Shown here in pieces: positions 10,215 through 49,941 of a stretch of 64,000 nt of DNA. Under the pieces are notes generated by a model. It was not told where the DNA came from. It did no database searches and saw only the letters and a list, made by a program, of their open reading frames with translations. The DNA is from Octopus vulgaris (taxonomy: Eukaryota). How positions within the stretch are numbered: the stretch's first letter is position 1; each line of letters opens with the position of its first letter. The stretch lies in assembly GCA_951406725.2 (NCBI GenBank), contig OX597824.1:99138001-99202000 (forward strand). The letters run 5' to 3'. The translations under genes and the position numbers were made by a program.

Positions 10215-10368
10215 AAAGACATAGAATTTAATTAAATTAGAAGGACACATTAGTATAATTTTACCTAAAATCTCCAAAAGGATAAGGATATGTCTATCTC
10301 TTGGAGATTTTAGGTATAATTATACTAACGTGTCCCTCTGTTCTAATTTAATTAAATTATATGCCTTT
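10215..10368. repeat. Imperfect palindrome (~65-bp arms) directly upstream of a hammerhead core; PLE pLTR inversion remnant
   Basis: AATTTAATTAAATTAGAA..GGACACATTAGTATAATT..TACCTAAAATCTCCAA is mirrored by TTGGAGATTTTAGGTATAATTATACTAACGTGTCC..TTCTAATTTAATTAAATT. Confidence 0.8.
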
Positions 10369-10370
10369 GC

Positions 10371-10455
10371 GCAGCTGAAGATTGCTCTGCATTTTAAATT
10401 GATGTAATGTTTGTAATGTTCAATTAAAGGGAGTTGCATGAAACGATCATACTGC
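10371..10455 (+). ncRNA. Degenerate type I hammerhead ribozyme
   Basis: GCAG-CTGAAGA(10375-10381)-long stem II-GAAAC GATC ATA-CTGC. Stem I is GCAG/CTGC, and GTA>ATA is consistent with CpG decay. Confidence 0.55.
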
Positions 10456-11104
10456 ATTACCTCTGGACATCCTTGTTGCTTATTTTGATTATAATCACCT
10501 TACTTTGAAATTGTATGGATAATACCATATTAAATTCTGGTTCCTCAACTTAAGTACCATATTCATCTGAATCTAAATTGTTACTGAACTCATCTACTAT
10601 ATATGAATATAGATATATATGTGTGTGTGTGTGTGCATACATATGTGTGTGTGTGCATACATATGTGTGTGTGTGTGTGTGTGTGTAGATATATATATAT
10701 ATATATATGAATAAAACTAGGGTCTAAATTTAACTAAAGCCTCTTAAAGGCAGGACCTCTGAGTGGCCACAATGCAATGCTTGAAATGGATATGAGAATG
10801 TGTGTAAAAGAAAGGTAACATTACAAGTTAACTGCCGCCCCAGCAGCAGCACCAATGAAATTGAATCTGCAGCTTCATTAAACAACGTTGTGTATATTAT
10901 GACAAGCACAAACAGTTCATATTGCCTCCATTATCAGTCAACAAGGTCAGATATACCGTCTCTATTACTGTTATCAGATAAATTTACAAATCTCATTAAA
11001 AAACAAAAGAAAAAAGCTATTCAAACAGGAAGGACTTTTTAGCATAATGAATTTAATTACTGAAAAAATTAAAAAAACAACCACACAACAGGACTTTATT
11101 AACA

Positions 11105-11550
11105 GTTTCAAATTTTGCCACAAAAGACAGCAGTTTTGGGGGAGGGGATGAGTAAATTACATCAACCCCAGTGTCCAGCTGGTACTTATTTTATCGACTT
11201 CAAAAGGATGAAAGATAAAGTTGACCTTGGTGCAATTTGAATTCAGAATGTAGTGACAGGTGAAATATCACTAAATATTTCGTCCAGCGTGCTAACGATT
11301 CTGCCAGCTTTCCACCTTAATCAATTAAATAATCCTTTCTACTGTAGGCACAAAACCTGAAATTTTGTGCAAAGGGCTAAGATTATTACATCGACCCCCA
11401 CTATTCAACTAGTACTTATTTCATCAACCCCAAAAGGATGAAAGGCAAAGCCAGCCCCAGCAGAATTTGAACTCAGAATGTAAAGGCAGACAAAATGCCA
11501 CTAAGTATTTTGCTTGAGGTGCTAATGGTTCTGCCAGCTCGCTGCCTTAA
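11105..11550 (-). mobile_element. Two tandem Nin/Deu-domain-like SINEs
   Basis: Two copies of GTACTTATTT..ATC...AAAGGATGAAAG..AAAG...ATTTGAAYTCAGAATGTA...CTGCCAGCT. Confidence 0.7.
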
Positions 11551-11836
11551 TAATGTTCATATATTAATGTATATATTTACACACACACACACACAAACAG
11601 AGGTGTATCTGTATTAAGATGTTCGCTTTGCAACCATGGGATTTCGGGTTCAGTCCCACAGTGTAGTAACTTACGCAAGTATCTTCTACTATAACCGTAG
11701 CTGACCAATGATTGGTAAGTGGATTTGGAAGAAGGCAGCTATGTAGAAACCAACTGTATGTGTGTGTGTGTGTGTGTGTAAGCATATGTGTGTGTGTGTC
11801 TGTGCTTATTTCTGTTCCCCACCACCACATGACAAT

Positions 11837-12100
11837 GGAGGCACAATGGCCTAGTGGTTAGGGCAGCAGACTCGCGGTTATGGGATCACGGTTTTGATTC
11901 CCAGACCAGGCGTTGCAAGTGTTTATTGAGTGAAAATACCTAAAGCTCCGTGAGGCTCCGGCAGGGGATGGTGGTGATCCCTGCTGTACTCTTTCACCAC
12001 AACTTTCTCTCATTCTTTCTTCCTCTTTCTGTTGTACCTGTATTTCAAATGGCCAGCCTTGTCACACACTGTCATGCTGAATCTCCCTGAGAACCCACGT
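11837..12100 (+). mobile_element. OR-like tRNA SINE nested in an older CORE-type SINE (11605-12185)
   Basis: It has the same head as 1299 and 3019. The flanks match the head and tail of the SINE at 31978-32400. Confidence 0.7.
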
Positions 12101-47053: not shown

Positions 47054-47237
47054 CATATATATATATATATATATATATATATATATATATATATATATAT
47101 GAATGTAAATGTGTTATGTCACCTATTTTGTTATGTCATGCTTTGTATTAAAAAATAAGCTATAAATGTGATCCAACTGATGTGTTGGTTAATCTCTGGT
47201 TTTCTCCATTTTCTAATTATTTGCATTTATATATATA

Positions 47238-48010
47238 TCATCATCATCATCATTTAGTGTCCATTTTCCATTTGGCATGAGTTGGAAGGTTTGACTGAGG
47301 ATTGGCAAGCCAGTAGGTTGCACCAACTCCAGTCTGAGCTCGCAAAGTTTCTACAGCTGGATACCCTTCCTAATGCCAACCACTCCGAGAGTGTGATGGA
47401 TGCTTTTTACATGCCTCTGTCATGGGAGCCAGTCAGGTGGCACCAGCATTGACCACAATTTGGATGGTGCTTTTTATGTGCCACCAGCACAGGAGCCAGT
47501 TGGGGTGGGGACTTGCAGCAGCCATGTTCGGATGGTGTTTTTATGTCTTACTGGCATTGATCCATGCTTGAATGGTGCTTATAACATGCCACCAGCACAG
47601 GTGCCTGTCAGGTGGCACTGGCATTGGCCACAACTACATTTTCCATTTTGATTTATTGATTTTACTTGACTCAATAGGTCTTCGCAAGCACAGAATGTCG
47701 CCCGATGATTCAAGGGTACTTTTAAATGGGCTGATTATGCAACACTGGTATCAGCCACAGCTGTGGTCTCACTTTACTTGCCGGGTCTTCTCAATCACAG
47801 CATATCTCCAAAGGTCTCAGTCTCTTGTGATTGCCTCTGTGAGGTCCAATGTTTGATGGTCGTGCTTCACCACCTCATCCCATGTAGTTTTGGGACTCCC
47901 TCCTCCATGTCTTCCTTCCATTGTTAGGGTGTGACACTTCTTCACACAGCTCTCCTCGTCCATATGTAGCACATGACCATACCAGTGCACTTGTCTCTCC
48001 TGCACACCAC
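47238..48010 (-). mobile_element. RTE C-terminus plus 3' UTR
   Basis: QERQVHWYGHVLHMDEESCVKKC, repeat array and (ATC)n. Shares near-identical UTR sequence with 62360-62550. Confidence 0.85.
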
Positions 48011-48054
48011 ATATATGTATGTATATCCTGGATGGAAACTTTCACAAAATACAT

Positions 48055-48930
48055 ATGAGAGTAGACTGCAAAGTTCATAGGCTGACTATGAAGGAGTGAT
48101 GCTGGAGCTGTGAAATTTTGACTGCATTAATTTCAACTCTTCTTATTAATAACTGCATTGTTTCTTCCCGGGTAAACTGACATCTGACTGTTCAGAGAAC
48201 ACTTCAAAACTAACTAGTATTGACTTGTCTTGAAAATGAACAAAATTTGGCATCATGATTTTATCAAGTACCTGCAGAAAAAGGGTTTAGCCCCTAAGGA
48301 CATTCATGCTGACATGGCTGCTACATTAGATGATGTTGCTCCAGCTTTATCAATAGTGCAAAAGTGGGCAGCTGAATTTAGGAGAGGAAGGGAGAGTCTT
48401 GAAGATGACCCATGGTGTGGAGGTCCTGCAACAGCCACCACCAAAGAAAACATTGAGTATGTTCACCATATGGTGATGGGTGGCAGTCAATTTGATTATA
48501 AATCAAATAGCCAATGCTATTAGCATATCCTGTGAGAGTTGAGAATAACATTGCACAATGAAGTTGACATGACAAGAGTTTCTCTTTGGTGGGTGCCACA
48601 TCTTCTGACCAAGATTGATCACACAACAGAAAAACCTGACACTGTTTGAAGCATATCTAGCTGGTTTCTTTGAATGTTTCCTAAGCCAGGATGAGTGTTA
48701 GCTCCATCACTTTGAATCAGAGACAAAGAGACAATCCATGCAATGAAAACATGCCTCCTCACCTGCTCTAACGAAGGCTGAGGTCGTTTCATCTGCTGGG
48801 AGGGTGATGACATCAGTTATTTTGGATGCGAAAGGCTTTGTGTTTATTGACTGTCTTCAAAAGAATCACACCATCAATGGAGAGTACCATGTGAACTTGC
48901 TGAAGCAGTTACAAAATGCTATCAAGACCT
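48055..48930 (+). mobile_element. mariner transposon 5' part (second family), disrupted
   Basis: IKYLQKKGLAPKDIHADM..APALSIVQKWAAEFRRGRESLEDDP, then WVPHLL, SAGRVM..FLDAKG. Confidence 0.88.
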
Positions 48931-48937
48931 AACATAC

Positions 48938-49941
48938 GGTCAGTCTATGGGATTACCCTGGGTTTCAAATCCATAAAGCGCTTAGCTTTATTGTGTTTCT
49001 TCAAACCTTAATGGCCAGTGGCCTATAACCTCTCTTCAAAATGGAGAGAGAAAAGACCTCATGGCTAGTTGTTGAACACACACACAAAGGAGTAGGCTTA
49101 AGTTCAAAGGATTGTCTCCCTTAGACCGCTGTCCATAATTTACATGGTTGGCTTCTGGGTTCCAGGATTTCAGTGGGAATCTCCTAAAATGTAAGTAGGG
49201 TTCAAGGACTTCCATTCTGGAATTTAAGATGTTCCCCAGATCGAGGGAGTTCTTTAATATTCTCAAGCATTTAGTCATGCACAGCTTGCAATACTCGCTC
49301 CCGTTGACATAGGGGCCCCTGGTTTTTCTTGGATCTTCCATGAGATTATGTGTGGAGTCCTTTGTCCTTCGGGCACCACACATGGCTGGCCTAGGACATG
49401 GCGTATTGTCTCTCTGGGATGCTGAACAAGGATCTGTAGTTGGAGAGGCACTGCTTGAAGGTGTTTCCGAAACATCTGCTGTATCTTCATTTACTGCTGC
49501 TGCTGGTGATGTTGATGATGTTATTTCCGCTGTGGCTGGCACTGGTGTTGTTGCTGATGTTAGGGTCATTAATGCTGGCAGAGGAGACATCATCAGTGGC
49601 AGTCTTGCGGTTGGTATTATTGGTGCTGCTTTGCTCTTAGAGCTGTCATTTGCACTGTATTGGTAGTGGCATCTTAAATTCCAGGATGGAAGTCTTCAGA
49701 CCCTGCTTACACTTCAAGAGATTCCTACTGAAGTCTTGAAACCCACAAGTCAACCACAGTGATTGCAGATAGCGGTTTAAGGGGGACAATACTTTGCACT
49801 TGACCCTTCTCTTTTGTCAACAACCAGCTATGCAGTTTTTTTTCCCTCCACTTTGAAGAAAGGTTATCACCCACTAGCCTCAAGAAACGCCATAAAGTTA
49901 AGTGCTTTGTGGATGTAAAACCCAGGATAACACCATAGACC
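48938..49941 (-). mobile_element. Penelope-like remnant bounded by ~100-bp inverted repeats
   Basis: ORF 49593-49036 contains CKLCMTKCLRILK..NILNSRMEVLEPYLHFRRF (PLE C-terminus-like). 48938-49050 is the reverse complement of 49843-49941. Confidence 0.7.

What the first reader, a model, noticed from the sequence alone, without database searches (positions are those of the whole stretch)
10215..49941. Recurrent class of tail-out inverted-repeat micro-insertions with hammerhead cores (six loci, unrelated sequences)
Seen: six inverted repeats (10215-10368, 12220-12575, 16866-17009, 37110-37352, 39371-40373, 48938-49941) share one geometry, with hammerhead cores or their 3' halves pointing outward. 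They show no obvious sequence similarity to each other. Lone cores occur at 36672 and possibly 2188, and several loci abut (TA)n. Inference: many distinct PLE families seed the genome with short ribozyme hairpins, about one per 10 kb here. If transcribed in introns they would supply dsRNA, a potential substrate for the A-to-I editing that is known to be extensive in coleoid cephalopods.
Basis: partly seen in the sequence, partly recalled or inferred. Interest (0 to 1): 0.7.

Follow-up and report, generated by a model that had tools for sequence, protein, structure and literature searches.

The report
Back-to-back Penelope retrotransposon stubs
The six hairpins are short, decaying, back-to-back end pieces of six different multicopy repeat families (five traced to Penelope-like jumping genes), an arrangement already described, but across the genome each pair carries an extra 'tail' on exactly one arm, likely because the element is copied twice at once from two start sites, and any role in RNA editing is untested.

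Summary
All six inverted repeats are real. Each is a copy of a different multicopy family with a type I hammerhead motif pointing outward. Five families trace to Penelope-like element (PLE) ORFs: four Hydra-clade, one Neptune/Nematis-like. The sixth was not traced. Orientation bias holds genome-wide: 39 tail-out against 1 tail-in among 113 motif-anchored loci. The architecture is published (Craig 2021; Gladyshev & Arkhipova 2013; Cervera 2014). What is added: 93 of 93 classifiable pairs (of 106) have one tailed and one tailless arm, and 7 of 26 loci of one family have an inverted arm made of tail only. This favours two separate priming events over the published fold-back model. In a 400-kb sample such structures ran at about one per 45 kb and held 35-49% of near-perfect non-microsatellite hairpin arms. 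Editing was not shown: the RNA data were uninformative. This scan noted the same architecture and the two-priming idea before, on other DNA.

The parts
10215..10579 (.). Family F1 (Hydra-clade PLE) tail-out insertion: left arm 10215-~10291 cut at (TA)n and lacking the hammerhead; right arm to 10579 with a tail from 10490. The two arms carry different subfamily alleles (5-bp indel plus one linked SNP).
   Evidence: ORF link in L382
10375..10451 (+).
12220..12790 (.). Family F2 tail-out insertion (no ORF found): tailless left arm 12220-12397, tailed right arm (right end approximate); hammerheads at 12459-12535 (+, stem III damaged) and 12260-12332 (-, core mutated)
16794..17009 (.). Family F3 (Hydra-clade) insertion: tailed left arm with only the 3' half of the hammerhead (16908-16919, -), short tailless right arm; left end approximate
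   Evidence: ORF link in L135
37062..37352 (.). Family F4 (canonical C-terminal GIY-YIG PLE, Neptune/Nematis-like) insertion: tailed left arm with an intact minimal hammerhead at 37202-37230 (-), tailless right arm, (TA)n on both sides
   Evidence: ORF link
39198..40373 (.). Family F5 (young Hydra-clade PLE): 5'-truncated copy on - strand with tail ~39198-39350, intact hammerhead 39408-39480 and GIY-YIG C-terminus 40044-40298; inverted 85-bp second arm 40289-40373 joined over an 11-nt microhomology
48938..49941 (.). Family F6 (old Hydra-clade PLE): left arm with decayed GIY-YIG (49124-49459) and degenerate hammerhead (48954-49004, -); inverted arm 49670-49941 with a remnant 3' half (49917-49929). 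A tail left of 48938 was not delimited.
36678..36737 (-). Lone type I hammerhead-like motif beside (TA)n; family not looked up
20100..22055 (-). Coding exon of a host gene with a TARSH_C domain. Its predicted next exon lies 28 kb before the window start, which puts loci 10215, 12220 and 16866 in a ~48-kb intron.

Best explanation
The six hairpins are 5'-truncated, back-to-back insertions of six repeat families, five of them traced to Penelope-like retrotransposons, and each likely arose at insertion when both strands of a (TA)n target were primed separately on element RNA. One strand would start at the far 3' site and give the tailed arm, the other at the near site and give the tailless arm. 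The two abortive cDNAs would then be joined in the middle over a few shared bases or filler. The hammerheads point outward only because they sit near the element's 3' end. Shown: family membership, geometry, two fixed 3' ends, one of each per pair, variable junctions, (TA)n flanks. Inferred: two priming events, an RT-endonuclease dimer, neutrality of the copies. Untested: self-cleavage, transcription, editing.
For: Upstream ORF remains: F5 RT+GIY-YIG in L118/L123, F1 in L382, F3 in L135, F6, F4 GIY-YIG PF01541 E 2.4e-6. The 3' ends are bimodal in all four families measured. 93 of 106 tail-out pairs were classifiable; all 93 are long+short, with 0 long+long and 0 short+short. In 25 of the 63 pairs where it could be called, the tailless arm reaches further 5' than the tailed arm, so the tailed arm cannot be a fold-back copy of it. 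7 of 26 anchored F5 loci have an inverted arm of tail sequence only, sharing nothing with the other arm. 2 of 14 F1 pairs mix subfamily alleles. 59 of 98 short ends abut (TA)4+, against 4.7% of random positions. In vitro, a PLE protein cuts and extends both strands, starts RT at two sites that bound the tail, and is predicted to be a dimer (Frangieh 2024, PMC11167929).
Against: All mechanistic evidence is from genomic end products. End-class thresholds were set after seeing the histograms, and 13 of 106 pairs were unclassifiable (4 cut by the locus edge, 9 with one end at neither site, 3 of these without a full tail). About two thirds of anchored loci show a single arm, which needs loss or absence of the second cDNA. 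Arms mostly share a lineage in the younger families (F5 16 shared vs 1 discordant, F1 54 vs 14), as fold-back also predicts; in F2, F4 and F6 no such signal was seen. Frangieh 2024 saw no strand difference in start site and did not model inverted copies. F2 has no ORF link.
Confidence: 0.7

Rival explanations
1. Same PLE origin, but the inverted arm is made by self-priming (fold-back) of one nucleic acid strand, with the endonuclease later trimming the tail from one side.
For: Proposed in Gladyshev & Arkhipova 2013 (PMC3846280 Discussion) and, for the tail, Craig 2021. Arms usually share subfamily alleles (12 of 14 F1 pairs at the indel, p 0.008). Some junctions are palindromic or share 1-11 nt. 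Three F1 pairs have one arm that stops before either 3' site.
Against: Tail-only inverted arms (7 of 26 F5 loci) share no sequence with the other arm; the tailless arm is the 5'-longer one in 25 pairs; 2 pairs have mixed alleles.
Confidence: 0.2
2. The hairpins are non-autonomous palindromic elements (MITE-like or retrozyme-like) that are copied as whole units.
For: Dozens of similar-sized palindromes per family; retrozymes derive from PLE pLTRs (bioRxiv 10.64898/2026.07.22.740005); one tandem hammerhead array with a tail-out inversion was found (L298).
Against: Junction position and arm lengths differ in every copy inspected; long copies run into ORFs; none of the six is a tandem array.
Confidence: 0.04
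3. These particular copies are kept by selection as intronic double-stranded RNA or ribozyme regulators of the host gene.
For: Three lie in a predicted intron; all fold as stable hairpins; coleoid editing outside coding regions targets repeats (Albertin 2022, PMC9068888).
Against: Arms have diverged about as much as unrelated copies; four of six cores or stems are damaged; the density of tight fold-backs in the window (4 in 64 kb) equals the genome sample (26 in 400 kb).
Confidence: 0.06

Closest known systems
EN+ Penelope-like element insertion units with an inverted 5'-truncated copy and one tail (Craig et al. 2021, PMC8557442, Fig. 2 legend; Gladyshev & Arkhipova 2013, PMC3846280)
   Same: 5' truncation, head-to-head inverted copy, tail at one end, hammerhead in the pLTR, (TA)n targeting
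   Different: Tails here run 45-200 bp rather than 30-40. 'Often at one end' becomes 93 of 93 classifiable pairs. Tail-only inverted arms were not seen in the passages read.
Hydra clade PLEs, nearest described Hydra-1_Obim (Craig 2021 supplement)
   Same: F5 protein shows, by eye, the same N-terminal RW[K/L], DKT and KDHKPNF blocks, a divergent RT4 and C-terminal CxxC/CxH; (TA)n target; hammerhead present
   Different: Different families with different hammerheads; F5 (~3.6-3.9 kb) and F1 (~6 kb) exceed the usual <3 kb; F5 lacks the CxCX5C linker and carries an Asn-rich insert
Minimal type I hammerheads of PLE pLTRs (Cervera & de la Pena 2014, PMC4209133)
   Same: Palindromic short stem III, an unpaired base before stem II, pairs 100-700 bp apart on opposite strands (reported in Schistosoma), U3-A8 core variant
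   Different: F1, F2, F3 and F5 have long, partly branched stem II regions of about 50-90 nt
Harbinger palindromes as hyper-editing substrates in Xenopus tropicalis; Penelope as the massively edited LINE in lizard (Porath et al. 2017, PMC5625713)
   Same: Self-folding repeats that need no neighbouring inverted copy; octopus has the highest hyper-editing and high dsRNA potential, with repeats not annotated in that study
   Different: Editing of these PLE hairpins is not shown; they are made anew at each insertion rather than being a palindromic consensus
L1 twin priming (recalled, from no call)
   Same: Two priming events on opposite strands give an inversion joined by microhomology
   Different: Here both arms usually overlap in sequence and start at two fixed element sites, which suits two templates or two pLTRs

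Membership tests
EN+ Penelope-like elements | RT plus GIY-YIG ORF upstream of the pLTR | tested here: met
   Five of six families: RT and EN seen for F1 and F5, RT thumb region and EN for F3 and F4, EN only for F6. Pfam GIY-YIG hit only for F4; Hydra-type ENs were recognised by tblastn to L118 and by eye.
EN+ Penelope-like elements | ORF link for family F2 (12220) | tested here: inconclusive
   No tblastn hit in the F2 loci; shared upstream sequence only ~130 bp; no further search made
EN+ Penelope-like elements | Partial tandem / pLTR upstream of the ORF | tested here: met
   F5 locus L118: 3' tail repeated directly at 3905-4043, upstream of the ORF; not examined for other families
EN+ Penelope-like elements | Inverted 5'-truncated copy with a tail at one end | tested here: met
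   (F1, F2, F4, F5); F3 and F6 pairs seen but not classified
EN+ Penelope-like elements | Type I hammerhead motif in the pLTR | tested here: met
   Family majority lines show core and stems (F3 5' core read from copies); descriptor 22 hits vs 0.8 shuffled in 400 kb
EN+ Penelope-like elements | AT-rich / (TA)n target | tested here: met
   59 of 98 short ends vs 4.7% random; weakest in F2, 5 of 20
EN+ Penelope-like elements | Target-site duplication | not tested
   Obscured by (TA)n flanks
Hydra clade (F5 as test case) | RWK and DKT motifs, C-terminal CxxC and CxH | tested here: met
   RWL, DKT, CGIC and CLH in L118; compared by eye with Hydra-1_Obim; no tree built
Hydra clade | CxCX5C linker | tested here: inconclusive
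   Present in F3 (L135) and F6 (L090); not found before the EN in F5 L118
Hydra clade | Generally under 3 kb | tested here: not met
   F5 ~3.6-3.9 kb, F1 ~6 kb with a long AT-rich 3' region; a typical, not strict, feature
Active hammerhead ribozyme | Self-cleavage | not testable with these tools
   Only folding predictions
Non-LTR retrozymes | Tandem units each with a hammerhead | tested here: not met
   None of the six is tandem; 2 tandem among 113 anchored loci
ADAR substrate | A-to-I changes in RNA over the hairpin | tested here: inconclusive
   Only contigs were available and cover was dominated by paralogous repeats

The most novel reading that the evidence does not exclude
PLEs of at least two clades insert by paired target-primed reverse transcription, one subunit of a dimer at each of two RNA start sites. 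The tens of thousands of back-to-back stubs this leaves are a main source of the near-perfect local dsRNA behind octopus hyper-editing, as Harbinger palindromes are in Xenopus tropicalis.
Probability: 0.25. Interest if true: 0.65.

Novelty: new member of a known kind. Interest (0 to 1): 0.4.

Why it matters
How PLEs form their inverted repeats is named as open in Craig 2021 and Frangieh 2024. The one-tail-per-pair rule and the tail-only arms give a sharp prediction for the existing in vitro system: two start sites, two strands, mixed barcodes. Separately, Porath 2017 left the source of the high octopus dsRNA potential unassigned. The 400-kb sample suggests PLE stubs could supply a third to a half of the non-microsatellite part, which matched DNA and RNA data could test directly. 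The six loci themselves look like ordinary decaying insertions.

Tried and rejected
Rfam scan: no hammerhead family match. Sequencing-run search with the host exon: no RNA holder listed. Laying contigs of four runs on 11950-13400 gave cover dominated by other repeat copies, so nothing on transcription or editing; no RNA-based gene model was obtained. My early idea that arms routinely come from different subfamilies was rejected: 12 of 14 F1 pairs agree and F5 agrees 16 to 1. The first classification of F1 loci was spoiled by microsatellite in the probe and was redone. The first attempt to extend families upstream was confounded by partner arms and was redone. Pfam did not recognise Hydra-type ENs. 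Tail-only arms do not pile up at the near start site (1 of 7 within 15 nt), so there is no support for two polymerases colliding on one RNA. The candidate core at 2188 was rejected. Duplicate loci from overlapping hits were dropped before counts (10, 17). Exceptions to the orientation rule: L210, one F1 pair 2 kb apart and one F2 pair on C28 are tail-in.
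Full report
Setting. The window is G000:C11:99138001-99202000 of a 2.8-Gb genome. An octopus is inferred from size, repeats and likeness of the elements to Hydra-1_Obim; no call named the species. One host exon with a TARSH_C domain lies on the minus strand at 20100-~22055. The rest of the domain is 28 kb before the window, in frame and with a fitting acceptor. So loci 10215, 12220 and 16866 fall in a predicted 48-kb intron. Whether the other three are transcribed is unknown.

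Observation. Self-BLAST and pairwise alignment confirm all six inverted repeats and show no similarity among them. They fold at z -10 to -26 against crude shuffles. A type I hammerhead descriptor passes at 37202-37230, 39408-39480, the lone 36678-36737 and an unlisted 24016-24051, with 0 hits in three shuffles of the window. Locus 12220 has both cores, one mutated. Locus 16866 has only the 3' half. Locus 48938 has degenerate cores. All point outward. 2188 is not a hammerhead.

What they are. Each locus is one copy of a multicopy family: 40 of 1,022-2,247 candidates were scored per search. Exact 23-27-mers occur 1,269 (F1), 62 (F2), 184 (F4) and 1,272 (F5) times, with reversed controls at 0; these are lower bounds. 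Majority lines show a CTGANGA...GAAA core with stems in unrelated sequence (the F3 5' core was read from copies). Long copies lead upstream into PLE ORFs. F5 gives RT plus endonuclease with Hydra-type motifs (compared by eye with Hydra-1_Obim). F1 gives a decayed Hydra-type ORF about 3 kb upstream in L382. F3 and F6 give Hydra-type endonuclease ends. F4 gives a canonical GIY-YIG with linker cysteines, Neptune/Nematis-like by eye, clade not resolved. F2 was not traced.

Orientation and density. Among 113 independent loci anchored on an exact motif, 39 have a tail-out partner, 1 tail-in, 2 tandem and 71 a single arm (one tail-out call, L196, is doubtful). In the 100 listed F5 positions I counted 20 pairs within 10 kb, all tail-out. 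In 40 stretches of 10 kb at round-number positions of my choosing, the descriptor found 22 motifs at 13 sites against 0.8 in shuffles. The four clear sites inside inverted arms all point outward; a looser rule gave 10 outward and 3 inward among 26 tight fold-backs. Nine tail-out hammerhead structures were recognised, some by eye: about one per 45 kb, or very roughly 30,000-120,000 per genome.

How they form. Junctions differ in every copy and often share 1-11 nt or hold short filler, so the hairpins are built at each insertion. 3' ends fall at two fixed sites per family. Of 106 tail-out pairs in F1, F2, F4 and F5, 93 could be classified, and all 93 have one tailed and one tailless arm; 13 could not be classified. 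The set mixes BLAST-ranked and anchored loci, and thresholds were set from the histograms. The tailed arm reaches further 5' in 38 pairs, the tailless in 25, and 30 are undetermined. In 7 of 26 anchored F5 loci the inverted arm is tail sequence only. Arms mostly share a lineage in the younger families (F5 16:1, F1 54:14) but not measurably in F2 (22:60), F4 (14:18) or F6 (9:39), where recurrent mutation probably dominates. At the F1 indel, 12 of 14 pairs agree and 2, including the window's own, are mixed. 59 of 98 short ends abut (TA)n. Inference: both strands are primed on RNA, one at each start site, usually from the same source element, and the cDNAs are joined centrally. Fold-back alone cannot give tail-only arms or a tailed arm that is the 5'-shorter one, unless extra trimming is assumed.

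Function. The copies decay like neutral insertions. At loci 12220 and 39371 the hammerhead is predicted to pair with the opposite arm (mean probability 0.81 and 0.78), less so at 37110 and 10215 (0.26 and 0.16). In the 400-kb sample, 11,959 non-microsatellite bases lie in inverted arms of at least 90% identity within 2 kb, and 9,482 more in microsatellites. 5,894 of the 11,959 were assigned by hand to tail-out hammerhead structures: 49%, or 35% without one tandem array. That is potential only, rests on six stretches, and drops to 27% with microsatellites counted. The one RNA test was uninformative.

Literature seen. Craig 2021 (PMC8557442): passages, the Hydra section and two supplement look-ups. 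Gladyshev & Arkhipova 2013 (PMC3846280): passages and Discussion. Frangieh 2024 (PMC11167929): parts 1-2 of 4; its supplements were not seen and may bear on the start-site argument. Cervera 2014 (PMC4209133): part 1 of 4. The retrozyme preprint 10.64898/2026.07.22.740005: part 1 of 5; supplements closed. Porath 2017, Albertin 2022 and PMC9989829: passages. Searches listed no paper stating a two-strand priming model for PLE inverted copies, and 32, 42 and 65 listed none tying PLE palindromes to cephalopod editing. Older subscription papers (Evgen'ev & Arkhipova 2005; Arkhipova 2006) did not appear and were not read; they may discuss it. L1 twin priming is recalled. Earlier notes of this scan report the same architecture and the two-priming idea on other DNA, and pointed me to Hydra-1_Obim; they are not counted as support.

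Verdict. Real, well patterned and of a known kind. The added value is the strict one-tail rule with tail-only arms across two PLE clades, and a first rough share of dsRNA potential. Interest 0.4.

Noticed in passing
A core at 41017 did not pass the descriptor.
   Followed up: no
L298:2097-4763 (G000:C1:20002097-20004763): Young tandem array of 359-bp units with an intact hammerhead in each (retrozyme-like): two units on one strand, five on the other, tail-out.
   Followed up: partly
L303, L306, L307, L326 (U3-A8) and L316:4046-4082 (G3-C8): Hammerheads with covarying core positions 3 and 8: seven U3-A8 motifs in 400 kb, the variant Cervera 2014 reported for Schistosoma Cercyon, and one G3-C8.
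   Followed up: partly
window 52289-52723 (-) and 7442-7695 (+): Two more PLE fragments: a canonical GIY-YIG (Pfam E 2.2e-6) and a weak Hydra-type RT piece.
   Followed up: no
L118, L090, L093: Asn-rich inserts in or before the endonuclease of F5 and F6, like those described in Adineta Penelope ORFs.
   Followed up: no
L378-L386: F1 has an unusually long (~3 kb) AT-rich 3' region with internal repeats between its ORF and its hammerhead.
   Followed up: partly
G000:C28:18487592-18487883: A rare tail-in pair of F2 motifs 270 bp apart.
   Followed up: no
   Followed up: no
window 26500-27548: 53-bp minisatellite with strong G skew.
   Followed up: no
window 20100-22055 (-): Coiled-coil protein with an N-terminal hydrophobic stretch and a C-terminal TARSH_C domain; the only genomic match over the Pfam cut-off.
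   Followed up: partly
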